From contig OZ024752.1 in the NCBI GenBank assembly GCA_964016885.1, forward strand, positions 21,948,001-22,012,000: a DNA stretch of 64,000 nt, written 5' to 3'. The notes under the pieces are model-generated. The model was not told the origin of the DNA, did not search any database, and saw only the letters and a list, made by a program, of their open reading frames with translations. Source of the stretch: Eledone cirrhosa (taxonomy: Eukaryota). Position 1 is the stretch's first letter; every line of letters starts with the position of its first letter. Below are positions 27,871 to 33,481 of the stretch, piece after piece. The position numbers and the translations under genes are program-made.

Positions 27871-27996
27871 GTAGGAGGTGAGTTTTATTGTAGTACAATA
27901 AAGCAATGCAGATATCGGATAAGAAGCACTCTACAGTTTGTGGGACTGGAGTATGCATAATATAAGATCAAAAGATGGTTAAAGGAGTTCAATATA

Positions 27997-28063
27997 TTTT
28001 ATTATGCGCATTTCAAAAACAAACATCATCAAACAATAATATTTGTGTTTTCATCAGATAAAA
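27997..28063 (-). ncRNA. Type I hammerhead ribozyme, left arm of PLE
   Basis: Exact reverse complement of 33209-33275. Confidence 0.82.
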
Positions 28064-29279
28064 CAGGAGAACATGATATGAAGGCTAAAAAAACACTTGT
28101 TGATAGTGCAGTTTTAAATCAACATATGAAAAGTGGTTTTAGATTGATGTGTGATATTGGGAAAAATATTTTATTTAGAGAGGGGGGGAGAGAAAAGGAT
28201 GAAAAGGGAAGGAGATGAGAGGGAGAGATGGGTGATAGAGAGAAAGAGATAGTTTTTATAACAGAGAGGAGATATATTTTATATAGAGGGGTTGAAAACC
28301 GTTGGAAGATACTGTATAAATTAAAAATTTTGAAAATTAACGAAGGGAGGATATGTGCGAGGAAAAAATATATTATATTTAGGGAGGGGTGGGGGTGGAA
28401 AGGGTGAAAAAAAGGGGAGGAGATGAGAGTGAAGGTGGAAAGGGAGAGATGGGTGATAGAGAGAAAGAGATAGTTTTTATAACTGAGAAAAAGATATAAT
28501 GTTTTAATATAGAGAGGTTGGGAACCGTTGGAAGATAATGTATAAATTAAAGGAATTTGAAAATTAACGAAGGGAAATTATGTATGGAGATAGAGAGAAA
28601 AAAATAACGAAGGGAGATTATGTATGGAGATAGAGAGAAAAAAATAATAATTGTGGGTGAATATTCAAAAGGAGAAATGTAGGAATCTTAAAATTAGCAA
28701 AGAGAAAATGTTTATGTATAGGATTTGAGAAAAATTTATATTGAATTCATATGTATTAATAATGAGTTCGTTGATGGGGAGAAAAAAATAATAATAATAA
28801 ATTAAGGATGAAATTGAGATTAAAAAGATTTATGATAGAGAGAAAAAATAATAATGATTGCGGATGAATACTCAAAATGTCAAAAACAAATGTTGTTGTT
28901 TACGAAGAGATATAATGAGGGTGATGAGTAAACGGGTATTATAGAGTGTATAATGCCCTTTAAAGTAAGGTAGATGGGTATATTTTAAAGAATATATGAG
29001 TATATATTAAAAAAAATATATATAATAATAAATTAAGGATGAAATTGAGATTAAAAAGATTTATGATAGAGGGAAAAAAATAATAATGATTGCGGATGAA
29101 TATTCAAAATGTCAAAAACAAATGTTATTGTTTTACGAGAAGATAGGATGAGGTAAATGAATAAACGAGTACTATAGAGTGTATAATGCCCTTTAAAGTA
29201 AGGTAGATGGGTATATTTTAAAGAGGTGTATGTATATGTGCCTTTGAGAAAAGATTCTAAATTGATAAAGAATTGAATA

Positions 29280-31184
29280 TTAACTGTATACTTTGTGAAA
29301 AGTTCTATGGAATTTATGAAGGCAGATGGAAAACAAATCCGAGCGTCTATTTATTATGGATTCTAGGTTAGAGATAATGGTAAATTTTTCATTTAGGCAG
29401 AGATTACAGATTTTAGATAGAGAACTGTTCAAGTACGAGGATGCAGAAGAAATCTTTTTCCAAAAGATGTTATATTTAATGTTTTTGTCTTTTAAGGACC
29501 ATATGAGTTCTGAGAGAGCAGTGTTAGTTCTTTTAAGTTTGTATTTGAAAGATGAATGATGATTATAGAGACGAGCTTTAAAAGAGGTGGAAGTGGAGCC
29601 AAAATAGGTGAAGGAGTTGGTGCTAGTTATAATTTTACATTCATAAATTAAGTTTTTATCGAGGCAATGGTTGTTGAGAGGACATTTATTTTTAATGCGG
29701 CAGTTGCAATTAGAGAGATTATTAATGAGTGATCTAGTGTTATCTATAGAAGGAATTGGATTGGAGAAGTTGTTTGCGATAGGAATAATAGGAATAATAG
29801 TTTCTTGATTTAGAGTTGGATTATGAACATTTAGCGAAGTTGTGTTTGACGTTGCATTTGGGTTTACAGAAGTTAGCCTAGGGTTTACAATGACGTCAGG
29901 AGTACTATTATTGTTATTATGAGATTCAATATTGGAAGGAAGAGATTTAGTATTTAATATTTTGTTGTTGTGTTTAGAAATGATGTTGGAAATATTGGAG
30001 GATGTAGAATACGAAAATTTAATGGTGTGTTTGTTAAATATTTTACTATAGATATGTGAGGGAGGGAAGCATTTATTTAAGGCACTAAAAAATAATTTAG
30101 GAATATTGTTATTAATAGAGATGGAGAAAGGAGCATTATACCAGATTATGTTTTTGTATCTAGGTCTTTTATTAAAATTATTGGAATGGTTATGATTAAA
30201 TATTCTACTGTAAGTTTTCCTAGAATTTGTTTCTTTATTATATTTGATTTTATCTGGATAGCCAGCTTTAGAAAGTGCGTTATTATAGTAATTGGCGTTA
30301 GCATCAAAGATGTTTTTATTAGAAGATATGTTAGATATTCTATTTCCAATATTATTAACTATAGCATTCTTGATATTGGTAGGATGGTTAGATTTAAAGT
30401 TAACATAATTAAGATTCTCATTGTTTTTATGGTAAGGGTAATATAGGCCAGTGTCAAGATTAAGAGATACATCCAAGAAATTAGCTAGTTTGGTACTATT
30501 ATCAAATTCAATTTTTAGGTTATGTTGGTTAAAGAGATTACGTATATTGTTCTTAATAATATTAAGTTTAACTATATTGCAATTTAGGATAGTAAAGAGT
30601 CCATCGTCACGATAAATTCCACCGCGAAGTTGAGGAATTTTCCGACTCAAAGAGTTCAAAATGAAGATACCAATTAAATCAGTCAATTGGGATGAATCGG
30701 ATGCTCCCATTGTGATGTCGAAGTTGTTAGAGGTATCGGCTCTGGTCCAATATTCGTTGTTGAACTCTAGGATGGTTTTACGTGCGGTGAGGATGATGTG
30801 AAGTTCATCTGTGGTGATGTCAGAATATTTAAGTGCGAAAGATAGAGCATTATTGAGAAGTGAAGGCGAAATGGAGGAATAGTAGCTGGCAATATCGAAT
30901 TGAATAAATTTTAGTTTGTTTTTATTATCCAATTTGTTGAACCAGCCAATCACTTCAGAAGTACCAAACCATAAATTTAGGTTTAAAGAAGAGCAATTAG
31001 AACTAACCTGTGGGATAATTCTATCCAAGATGGCTTTACTAACAACCCCCAGATCAGATTTAGAGGGGGCGATTAATCTAACAGGTAGTTCAGTGCGAAA
31101 ATTGTTTTTGTGATCCTTGAGATTTATCCTCGGAGTTCTTGGGAGGAATGGTTCGGTCTTTTTTTCAATGCCAAGTTTTGACAT
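29280..31184 (-). CDS. PLE reverse transcriptase + GIY-YIG endonuclease polyprotein (5'-truncated but uninterrupted)
   Basis: NLKDHKNNF...RLIAPSKSDLG, FIQFDIASYY, FDITMGA.DS, IYRDDGL, NFLDVSLNL, YV...SNHP, WYNAPFS, HTIKFSYS; CNCR.K..CPL...CL..NLIY..YFGST...FKAR..NH..SF..C.LCL.EK..NRRS...C.H. The frame stays open upstream (INLEAYEI) to the inversion junction. Confidence 0.9.
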   Translation of the reverse strand: MSKLGIEKKTEPFLPRTPRINLKDHKNNFRTELPVRLIAPSKSDLGVVSKAILDRIIPQVSSNCSSLNLNLWFGTSEVIGWFNKLDNKNKLKFIQFDIASYYSSISPSLLNNALSFALKYSDITTDELHIILTARKTILEFNNEYWTRADTSNNFDITMGASDSSQLTDLIGIFILNSLSRKIPQLRGGIYRDDGLFTILNCNIVKLNIIKNNIRNLFNQHNLKIEFDNSTKLANFLDVSLNLDTGLYYPYHKNNENLNYVNFKSNHPTNIKNAIVNNIGNRISNISSNKNIFDANANYYNNALSKAGYPDKIKYNKETNSRKTYSRIFNHNHSNNFNKRPRYKNIIWYNAPFSISINNNIPKLFFSALNKCFPPSHIYSKIFNKHTIKFSYSTSSNISNIISKHNNKILNTKSLPSNIESHNNNNSTPDVIVNPRLTSVNPNATSNTTSLNVHNPTLNQETIIPIIPIANNFSNPIPSIDNTRSLINNLSNCNCRIKNKCPLNNHCLDKNLIYECKIITSTNSFTYFGSTSTSFKARLYNHHSSFKYKLKRTNTALSELIWSLKDKNIKYNIFWKKISSASSYLNSSLSKICNLCLNEKFTIISNLESIINRRSDLFSICLHKFHRTFHKVYS

Positions 31185-31992: not shown

Positions 31993-33208
31993 TATTCAAT
32001 TCTTTATCAATTTAGAATCTTTTCTCAAAGGCACATATACATACACCTCTTTAAAATATACCCATCTACCTTACTTTAAAGGGCATTATACACTCTATAG
32101 TACTCGTTTATTCATTTACCTCATCCTATCTTCTCGTAAAACAATAACATTTGTTTTTGACATTTTGAATATTCATCCGCAATCATTATTATTTTTTTCC
32201 CTCTATCATAAATCTTTTTAATCTCAATTTCATCCTTAATTTATTATTATATATATTTTTTTTAATATATACTCATATATTCTTTAAAATATACCCATCT
32301 ACCTTACTTTAAAGGGCATTATACACTCTATAATACCCGTTTACTCATCACCCTCATTATATCTCTTCGTAAACAACAACATTTGTTTTTGACATTTTGA
32401 GTATTCATCCGCAATCATTATTATTTTTTCTCTCTATCATAAATCTTTTTAATCTCAATTTCATCCTTAATTTATTATTATTATTTTTTTCTCCCCATCA
32501 ACGAACTCATTATTAATACATATGAATTCAATATAAATTTTTCTCAAATCCTATACATAAACATTTTCTCTTTGCTAATTTTAAGATTCCTACATTTCTC
32601 CTTTTGAATATTCACCCACAATTATTATTTTTTTCTCTCTATCTCCATACATAATCTCCCTTCGTTATTTTTTTCTCTCTATCTCCATACATAATTTCCC
32701 TTCGTTAATTTTCAAATTCCTTTAATTTATACATTATCTTCCAACGGTTCCCAACCTCTCTATATTAAAACATTATATCTTTTTCTCAGTTATAAAAACT
32801 ATCTCTTTCTCTCTATCACCCATCTCTCCCTTTCCACCTTCACTCTCATCTCCTCCCCTTTTTTTCACCCTTTCCACCCCCACCCCTCCCTAAATATAAT
32901 ATATTTTTTCCTCGCACATATCCTCCCTTCGTTAATTTTCAAAATTTTTAATTTATACAGTATCTTCCAACGCTTTTCAACCCCTCTATATAAAATATAT
33001 CTCCTCTCTGTTATAAAAACTATCTCTTTCTCTCTATCACCCATCTCTCCCTCTCATCTCCTTCCCTTTTCATCCTTTTCTCTCCCCCCCTCTCTAAATA
33101 AAATATTTTTCCCAATATCACACATCAATCTAAAACCACTTTTCATATGTTGATTTAAAACTGCACTATCAACAAGTGTTTTTTTAGCCTTCATATCATG
33201 TTCTCCTG

Positions 33209-33275
33209 TTTTATCTGATGAAAACACAAATATTATTGTTTGATGATGTTTGTTTTTGAAATGCGCATAATAAAA
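33209..33275 (+). ncRNA. Type I hammerhead ribozyme, right arm of PLE
   Basis: TTTTAT-CTGATGA-AAACACAAATATTATT-GTTT-GATGATGTTTGTTTTT-GAAA-TGCGCA-TA|ATAAAA. Stem I is 6 bp, stem II pairs 15 of 16 positions counting G:U, and stem III is palindromic. Predicted cleavage follows 33269. Confidence 0.82.
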
Positions 33276-33481
33276 TATATTGAACTCCTTTAACCATCTT
33301 TTGATCTTATATTATATATATATATATATATATATATATATATATATATATATATATATATATATATATATATATATAAGAGTAAACGATACATATATCC
33401 TTTACCCTTTTACATATATATATGTGTGTGAGTGTGTGTGTGTCAATACGTACGTATATATAATGTATGTATATATATATA

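What the first reader, a model, noticed from the sequence alone, without database searches (positions are those of the whole stretch)
27871..33315. Young Naiad-like Penelope element built as a 5.4-kb foldback with a hammerhead ribozyme at each outer end
Seen: two 2103-bp arms in tail-out orientation (I spotted only one mismatch, near 32973) around a 1153-bp RT spacer. The RT-GIY-YIG frame is uninterrupted, each arm ends in a complete type I HHR fold overlapping AATAAA, and both ends sit in (TA)n. Known: PLEs form direct or inverted pseudo-LTRs and carry minimal HHRs that generally cleave as dimers via a palindromic stem III. Inference: the insertion is very recent. The two HHRs are on opposite strands and cannot pair in cis on one transcript. 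Any read-through RNA would fold into a ~2.1-kb dsRNA with a ribozyme-defined end, a candidate endo-siRNA or A-to-I editing substrate that could silence the family.
Basis: partly seen in the sequence, partly recalled or inferred. Interest (0 to 1): 0.75.

Follow-up and report, generated by a model that had tools for sequence, protein, structure and literature searches.

The report
Twin-primed Hydra-clade Penelope foldback
This mirror-shaped jumping-gene copy is an ordinary member of a young, very abundant Penelope-type family, but its sister copies nearly always carry one short and one long end and matching arms, so each was likely made by copying one RNA twice, once from each side of the cut DNA.

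Summary
The foldback is real: 2,103-nt arms, one mismatch, 1,153-nt spacer, (TA)n on both sides. It is not a Naiad. The endonuclease is C-terminal and the motifs (RWT, DKT, CxCX5C, CxxC/CxH, hammerhead) are those of the Hydra clade. The copy lacks the first 156 of 800 codons. The ribozymes are not the ends: these lie 46 and 134 nt past the predicted cut, and the extra 88 nt is the known PLE 'tail'. The layout is the family norm, with at least 7,473 long and 5,296 short ends in this genome. The by-product is a rule: 55 of 55 resolved foldbacks not chosen by their ends have one +46 and one +134 end, the arms share rare variants, and two insertions repeat one private junction in both arms. Best reading: both cut target strands prime on one RNA at two fixed start sites (twin priming). 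This links published in vitro start sites to the inverted layout. A silencing role for this locus is untested; one sister locus shows ADAR-like marks. The scan noted twin-priming geometry and edited Penelope copies before on other DNA.

The parts
27410..27869 (.). (TA)230, left half of the target microsatellite
27869..27956 (-). 88-nt 'tail' (+47 to +134 after the predicted ribozyme cut), on the left arm only; outer end at +134, inferred reverse-transcription start 1
   Evidence: same sequence runs on into the 5' UTR in tandem copies
27957..30059 (-). Left arm, paired part (end of ORF, 3' UTR, hammerhead)
27995..28065 (-). Type I hammerhead motif, left copy; predicted cut after 28003
   Evidence: mirror of the right copy
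29280..31214 (-). 5'-truncated RT-linker-GIY-YIG frame, residues 157-800 of the family protein, no start codon
30060..31212 (-). Unpaired spacer: RT-coding stretch reached only by the longer arm
31213..31214 (.). Head-to-head junction with 2 nt of overlap (family positions -3215 and -2060)
   Evidence: chance of 2 nt or more is 0.18
31213..33315 (+). Right arm; outer end at +46, inferred reverse-transcription start 2
31213..31992 (+). Second copy of the C-terminal frame (residues 539-800), including linker and endonuclease
31333..31560 (+). About 70-aa asparagine-rich insert before the CxCX5C linker, absent from 11 aligned homologues (mirror about 29712-29939)
32048..32490 (+). 233-bp tandem duplication in the 3' UTR (mirror 28782-29224)
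33144..33149 (+). CATATG palindrome at -125 to -120, where many sister copies fold back to give 420-440-bp mini foldbacks
33207..33277 (+). Type I hammerhead motif, right copy; palindromic stem III AUGCGCAU; predicted cut after 33269; AATAAA 33269-33274
33313..33378 (.). (TA)33, right half of the target microsatellite

Best explanation
This is a very young, 5'-truncated, non-autonomous insertion of a Hydra-clade Penelope-like element whose mirror shape was likely made during insertion, when both cut strands of a (TA)n target primed reverse transcription on one element RNA, one at +134 and one at +46 past the ribozyme site. Shown: the anatomy, the clade motifs, the two fixed ends, their one-of-each pairing and the sharing of variants between arms. 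Inferred: (1) the GIY-YIG domain cuts both strands of (TA)n; (2) two RT units, probably a dimer, start at the two sites; (3) the +134 cDNA either stalls near the +46 site or displaces the cDNA ahead of it; (4) the two cDNA ends are joined head to head and filled in. Here the +134 cDNA ran 3.35 kb and the +46 cDNA 2.10 kb; the difference is the spacer plus the tail. The ribozyme does not set the ends; it may help make circular or unit-length templates. Any hairpin RNA would be a by-product.
For: End rule in samples not chosen by their ends: 24 of 24 resolved among 34 RT-picked loci, 25 of 25 resolved among 27 variant-picked loci, 6 of 6 resolved among 9 junction-picked loci; 55 of 55, p=3e-17 against at most 50% under free choice. 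End-anchored: a +134 end faces +46 in 45 of 48 resolved cases (61 examined), a +46 end faces +134 in 27 of 33 (40 examined); Fisher p=1e-12. Either end can be on the longer arm. In 16 of 61 cases the +134 arm stops at +31 to +103, so the arms barely overlap; L021, L023, L032 and L051 pair a +134 arm of 40-121 nt with a +46 arm of 3.8 kb or more. Copies without an inverted arm end at either site (L039, L043, L047, L050 at +46; L059, L090 at +134). Arms agree at 160 of 160 comparisons of family-polymorphic sites in 16 foldbacks. Four of 8 shared variants tested occur only in the two arms of their own insertion, including both of this window's. L163 and L164 are foldbacks of 204-nt and 185-nt tandem units whose novel junction is in both arms (2+2 and 4+3 copies) and in no other fetched locus; in L164 the +46 arm is the longer. 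In vitro, an anole PLE cuts and extends both strands and starts at two sites that bound the tail (PMC11167929).
Against: No experiment on this family; the start sites are read from insertion ends. Exceptions exist: three +46/+46 and three +134/+134 foldbacks, and 13 of 61 and 7 of 40 anchored ends stayed unresolved. In vitro the anole element showed no difference in start site between strands. Private substitutions shared by both arms are what snap-back copying or later arm-to-arm conversion would also give, and all four genome-private cases are in insertions whose longer arm ends at +134, where snap-back is possible; the one +46-long case tested was a lineage variant. Arm lengths are correlated in one sublineage (median difference 158 versus 713 nt, n=14, p=0.00025), which fits one template but also snap-back. 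One foldback (L142) differs between arms at a lineage site. The 2-nt junction overlap is not above chance.
Confidence: 0.68

Rival explanations
1. Snap-back: one cDNA starts at +134, folds back on itself and is copied outward; the copy is cut or joined at the TA-rich +46 site; later central deletions make the spacer.
For: Explains genome-private variants shared by both arms, near-equal arm lengths in one sublineage and palindromic junctions at CATATG. Self-priming was proposed in PMC3846280. The geometry of this window's copy allows it.
Against: Cannot give a +46 arm of 3.8 kb or more beside a 40-121-nt +134 arm, nor solo +46 copies, nor L164 with a longer +46 arm, without exact one-sided deletions. 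Rare variants are present in all three copies of a locus, including the direct tandem copy, which points to the template rather than to a copied RT error.
Confidence: 0.15
2. Two RNAs from one source locus, possibly held together by the palindromic hammerhead stem III, are each primed once.
For: AUGCGCAU is kept in 186 of 203 motif matches and pairs with itself at -10.5 kcal/mol; +46/+46 and +134/+134 foldbacks exist; RNAs of one source share lineage variants.
Against: Gives no reason for one-of-each ends, for +134 arms stalling near +46, for genome-private variants, or for a private junction in both arms of units that lack the ribozyme core (L163, L164).
Confidence: 0.12
3. This locus acts as a hairpin-RNA source that silences or is edited. 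It does not exclude the best explanation.
For: A read-through would form a 2.1-kb duplex. L151 carries 33 A-to-G changes on one strand among 38 differences across family foldback pieces, with few after G (1 of 17) and many after A (19 of 37). Rotifer PLEs give antisense small RNAs (PMC3846280).
Against: No host gene frame or promoter is evident in the window (long frames elsewhere look like other mobile-element fragments); the copy lacks the 5' part; the window's copy shows no such marks; thousands of copies share the layout, so this one is not special; the family has multiplied recently despite it.
Confidence: 0.12
4. Assembly or read-chimera artefact.
For: The junction is not bridged in the four runs laid; near-identical arms could be smoothed by an assembler.
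Against: Flanks are not mirrored; ends differ by the family's tail; the arms differ at one site; the same rule holds at 55 loci with different breakpoints; raw short reads of two other runs show +46|TA ends and strand-switch joints.
Confidence: 0.02

Closest known systems
Hydra-clade PLEs (Craig et al. 2021, PMC8557442; passages, section 11, supplement part 2 and passages read), e.g. Hydra-1_Obim, Penelope-13_HM
   Same: C-terminal GIY-YIG, RWK-like and DKT motifs, CxCX5C linker, CxxC and CxH, hammerhead, (TA)n target; Penelope-13_HM has an inverted 5'-truncated copy; the printed Hydra-1_Obim protein matches motif by motif by eye.
   Different: 3.9-kb unit rather than under 3 kb; RWT for RWK; asparagine-rich insert; hammerhead sequence unlike Hydra-1_Obim's; thousands of young copies; 88-nt tail.
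EN+ PLE insertions with inverted pLTR and one-sided tail (PMC8557442 Fig. 2 legend; PMC3846280 passages)
   Same: [quoted passage not shown]
   Different: Tail is 88 nt, not 30-40; the pairing is counted here (55 of 55); those papers ascribe it to endonuclease resolution or self-priming on an antisense template.
Poseidon element of the green anole in vitro (Frangieh et al. 2024, PMC11167929; parts 1-2 of 4 read)
   Same: Both strands cut and extended; two internal RT start sites bounding the tail; hammerhead not needed; dimer predicted.
   Different: Other clade; no strand difference in start site in vitro; the word 'inverted' occurs once, not about insertions, so the link to foldbacks is not made there.
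L1 twin priming (Ostertag and Kazazian 2001; paper not held, known from one passage of PMC2246262 and from recall)
   Same: Both sides of the break prime on one RNA and give an inversion.
   Different: Recalled for L1: poly(A) start, a variable second site and little overlap of arms. Here both sites are fixed, 88 nt apart, and the arms can overlap by kilobases, which needs displacement or a repeated template.
Dimer-type PLE hammerheads and the circular-template proposal (Cervera and de la Pena 2014, PMC4209133; passages)
   Same: Weak palindromic helix III; tandem copies read across the cut site without a scar.
   Different: The two mini-tandem units found here lack the ribozyme core, and their junctions are at +4/5 and +36, not at the cut.

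Membership tests
Naiad PLE | GIY-YIG endonuclease N-terminal to RT | tested here: not met
   RT5 YRDD at 357, YFG at 693 of 800 aa; definition in PMC8557442
Naiad PLE | DKG modified to DKA; CxC between EN and RT | tested here: not met
   DKT at 123; the CxC lies after RT in CNCRIKNKC at 659
Naiad PLE | No canonical hammerhead | tested here: not met
   Core, stems I and II and palindromic stem III present; Rfam does not score it
Hydra-clade PLE | Single ORF with C-terminal GIY-YIG lacking CCHH | tested here: met
   YECK...YFGST with no cysteine pair between. Pfam: 0 hits for the protein, GIY-YIG in 1 of 17 aligned members
Hydra-clade PLE | RWK and DKT motifs | tested here: met
   RWT at 37 (RWK in most aligned homologues) and DKT at 123; both lie in the part this copy has lost
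Hydra-clade PLE | CxCX5C linker, CxxC and CxH at the C terminus | tested here: met
   659, 759, 787
Hydra-clade PLE | Hammerhead motif and (TA)n insertion | tested here: met
Hydra-clade PLE | Generally under 3 kb (typical, not defining) | tested here: not met
   Unit 3,896 bp
Hydra-clade PLE | Placement in an RT tree with named clade members | not tested
   No named reference proteins were available as data; compared by eye with text of the supplement
EN+ PLE inverted insertion with tail | Inverted 5'-truncated copy at the 5' end, tail at one end | tested here: met
Twin priming | Two independent primings, one per target strand | tested here: met
   Inferred from arms that each hold sequence the other lacks
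Twin priming | Both on one RNA molecule | tested here: inconclusive
   Favoured by shared variants and junctions; conversion or one source locus not excluded
Twin priming | Microhomology at the junction; target-site duplication | tested here: inconclusive
   2 nt here, chance 0.18; duplication unreadable in (TA)n
Type I hammerhead, dimer type | Self-cleavage as a dimer | not testable with these tools
   Structure-keeping variants of stem II and a conserved palindrome; about 1 of 267 sense copies breaks at the cut

The most novel reading that the evidence does not exclude
Penelope-like elements insert by obligate twin priming: a protein dimer holds one RNA, sometimes a small circle, and assigns one of two fixed start sites to each cut DNA strand, so the inverted repeat, the one-sided tail and the tandem units are all products of one reaction, with the second RT displacing the first cDNA over kilobases.
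Probability: 0.55. Interest if true: 0.68.

Novelty: new member of a known kind. Interest (0 to 1): 0.45.

Why it matters
How Penelope-like elements make their inverted repeats and one-sided tail is stated as open in PMC8557442, and the in vitro work in PMC11167929 stops before full insertions. This family supplies thousands of young natural products with a countable rule (one end of each kind, arms from one template, private junctions repeated in both arms). That turns the question into a simple barcoded-template assay. It also means such foldbacks are made routinely, so the genome holds many potential hairpin RNAs. The locus itself is ordinary.

Tried and rejected
Rfam: no hammerhead among 113 matches at E<=1. 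Pfam: 0 families for the window frame and the full protein; no solved-structure match for the 17-sequence profile. No RNA holder was listed among 20 runs; this is no evidence on expression. Reads laid on the junction: the 'opposite strand' joints 30061-31213 are ordinary uninterrupted copies, not this junction. Ribozyme cut as an insertion boundary: rejected; about 1 of 267 sense copies breaks near +1 (L067), and the break at +1 in L168 has about 10 nt of microhomology and can be a plain deletion. Junction microhomology across 63 junctions was not turned into a statistic because exact matching fails in diverged copies. The spacer column was mis-computed and is not used. L068 was moved from +134/+134 to unresolved because TA tracts lie between the two ends; L141 was left out of the arm-length test because one end lies outside the stretch. 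Literature searches listed no paper reporting one-of-each end pairing or twin priming for PLEs; the library holds only open PMC papers and bioRxiv, most hits were seen as listings only, and supplements other than that of PMC8557442 were not read (those of PMC11167929 may bear on the tail). PMC13282606 (passages) and 10.64898/2026.07.22.740005 (abstract and outline) added nothing specific.
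Full report
Observation. The two arms are there: 27957-30059 pairs with 31213-33315 over 2,103 nt with one mismatch (28299/32973) and no indel, around a 1,153-nt spacer. The left arm continues for 88 nt to 27869, so the insertion is 5,447 bp between (TA)230 and (TA)33. The minus-strand frame 29280-31220 is open. 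Each arm holds a hammerhead core with an 8-bp stem I, a 12-bp stem II helix and the palindrome AUGCGCAU as stem III; the predicted cut follows 33269 and its mirror 28003. Rfam does not score it. Positions below are counted from that cut.

Clade. Tandem copies elsewhere in the genome give a 3,896-bp unit with an 800-aa protein starting at +213. The window copy is identical over residues 157-800 and lacks the rest, so it cannot be autonomous. Order and motifs are RWT (37), DKT (123), YRDD (357), CNCRIKNKC (659), YFG (693), CNLC (759), CLH (787). Craig et al. 2021 (PMC8557442) define Naiads by an N-terminal endonuclease, DKA and no canonical hammerhead, and the Hydra clade by a C-terminal endonuclease, RWK, DKT, CxCX5C, CxxC, CxH, hammerheads and (TA)n targets. 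The element is therefore Hydra-type; the printed Hydra-1_Obim protein agrees motif by motif by eye. No tree was built. Against 11 unnamed homologues it has an asparagine-rich insert of about 70 aa before the linker, as described for rotifer PLEs.

Family and age. The RT spacer found 2,395 candidates, of which 40 were scored; 39 of the 40 other full-length alignments differ by 1-2 substitutions. Exact junction patterns count 7,473 ends at +134 joined to TA and 5,296 ends at +46 joined to TA, controls 0, and 45 read-throughs of +134 into the 5' UTR. These are exact-match counts and not comparable one to one. An inverted 5'-truncated copy and a tail at one end are described as typical of PLEs. 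The foldback is thus the norm, not a peculiarity.

The end rule. Three samples were not chosen by their ends. Of 34 RT-picked loci (window included), 24 are resolved foldbacks and all have one +46 and one +134 end (within a few bases); 4 run out of the stretch or contig, 2 end in N runs and 4 have no inverted arm. Of 27 loci picked by an internal variant present on both strands, 25 are resolved and all mixed. Of 9 loci picked by the 5' UTR junction, 6 are resolved and all mixed, one read by eye. Together 55 of 55, p=3e-17. Anchored samples from the start of contig C1 agree but show exceptions: of 61 +134 ends, 45 face +46, 3 face +134 and 13 are unresolved; of 40 +46 ends, 27 face +134 (2 read by eye), 6 (three insertions) face +46 and 7 are unresolved.

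Two primings. Either end can sit on the longer arm. In 16 of 61 cases the +134 arm stops between +31 and +103; 17 of 61 stop near -124, at a CATATG palindrome, mostly giving mini foldbacks of about 430 bp. Four loci pair a +134 arm of 40-121 nt with a +46 arm of 3.8 kb or more. Each arm can hold sequence the other lacks, so neither is in general a copy of the other. Frangieh et al. 2024 (PMC11167929) showed for an anole PLE that both strands are cut and extended, that reverse transcription starts at two internal sites bounding the tail, and that the hammerhead is dispensable. Reading +46 and +134 as such start sites is inference from that work.

One template. In 16 foldbacks with 300 nt or more of overlap the arms agree at all 160 comparisons of 15 family-polymorphic sites; over -1300 to +30 arms of one locus differ by 0.9 substitutions and 1.7 indels (9 pairs) against 5.3 and 6.3 between loci (732 pairs). 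One later locus, L142, differs at a lineage site. Of 8 shared variants counted genome-wide, 4 occur only in their own two arms, among them both of this window's (the other allele was seen 64 and 42 times in fetched loci); two are rare (10 and 11 places, three of them in the locus) and two mark sublineages (83 and 181). In one sublineage the inner ends of the two arms lie close (median 158 nt, shuffled 713, n=14 of 15); this window (-3215, -2060) and several C1 copies do not follow that. The clearest cases are L163 and L164: foldbacks of 204-nt and 185-nt tandem units cut from the region after the ribozyme, with the same new junction in both arms and in no other of the fetched loci, left end +134 and right end +46. 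A small circular or repeatedly read RNA primed twice is the simplest account. Private substitutions alone do not decide the matter: snap-back copying, later conversion between arms or assembler smoothing could also share them, and their source stays unexplained.

Ribozyme. The palindrome is kept in 186 of 203 motif matches, folds at 0 kcal/mol alone and pairs with a second copy at -10.5; stem II variants keep the helix. This is the dimer type of Cervera and de la Pena (PMC4209133). It does not mark insertion ends, and only about 1 of 267 sense copies breaks at it. In a read-through hairpin it would be paired with the opposite arm. Activity is untested.

Hairpin RNA. Prompted by earlier notes of this scan, I scanned 138 loci for one-way changes: one, L151, has 33 A-to-G changes among 38 differences on one strand across sense and antisense family pieces, scarce after G. 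That fits ADAR editing of a read-through RNA later copied back (pattern recalled from general knowledge). The window copy has no such marks, and nothing shows it is transcribed.

Artefact check. Flanks are not mirrored, the ends differ by the family tail, and raw short reads from two other runs show TA loose ends at the +46 position (469 and 492 reads) and strand-switch joints, two of them in both runs. The window's own junction was not bridged; it is expected to be private.

Verdict. An ordinary young Hydra-clade PLE insertion, mislabelled as Naiad, with a layout known in print. Its value lies in the family-wide pairing rule and single-template evidence, which I did not find in seven literature searches but which earlier notes of this scan proposed for other elements. 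Interest 0.45.

Noticed in passing
L163:459-1284 and L164:502-1846: Foldbacks made of 204-nt and 185-nt tandem units from just after the ribozyme cut, with one private junction repeated in both arms; candidates for rolling-circle copies of small circular RNAs that lack the ribozyme core.
   Followed up: partly
L151:1812-2151: 33 A-to-G changes on one strand across a mini foldback and the next tail piece, inside a compound insertion; ADAR-like.
   Followed up: partly
window 33144-33149; L056, L065, L066, L099, L117 and others: Hot spot at -124: many 420-440-bp mini foldbacks join at or near a CATATG palindrome; may mark a transcript 5' end.
   Followed up: partly
window 2577-2969 (-): Older RT remnant 51% identical to the family protein over residues 176-309; a second Hydra-type family.
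   Followed up: no
window 5962 (-), 6392 (+), 10879 (+): Further hammerhead-like cores with short stem II, probably other PLE ends.
   Followed up: no
window 33873-60688 and 61926-63989: About 27-kb TA-rich minisatellite with a 47-49-bp period beside the insertion.
   Followed up: no
window 9028-9483, 33528-33866, 44050-44389: Dispersed repeat with a 112-bp tandem unit.
   Followed up: no
L026, L046, window arms: Variants shared by both arms lean to T-to-C in the sense strand (8 of 21, against 3 of 38 arm-specific; tallied by hand, post hoc); could reflect U-G misreading or editing of an antisense RNA.
   Followed up: no
L096:201-767; L121; L122; L125: Exceptions to the end rule: a divergent +134/+134 foldback and three +46/+46 foldbacks.
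   Followed up: partly
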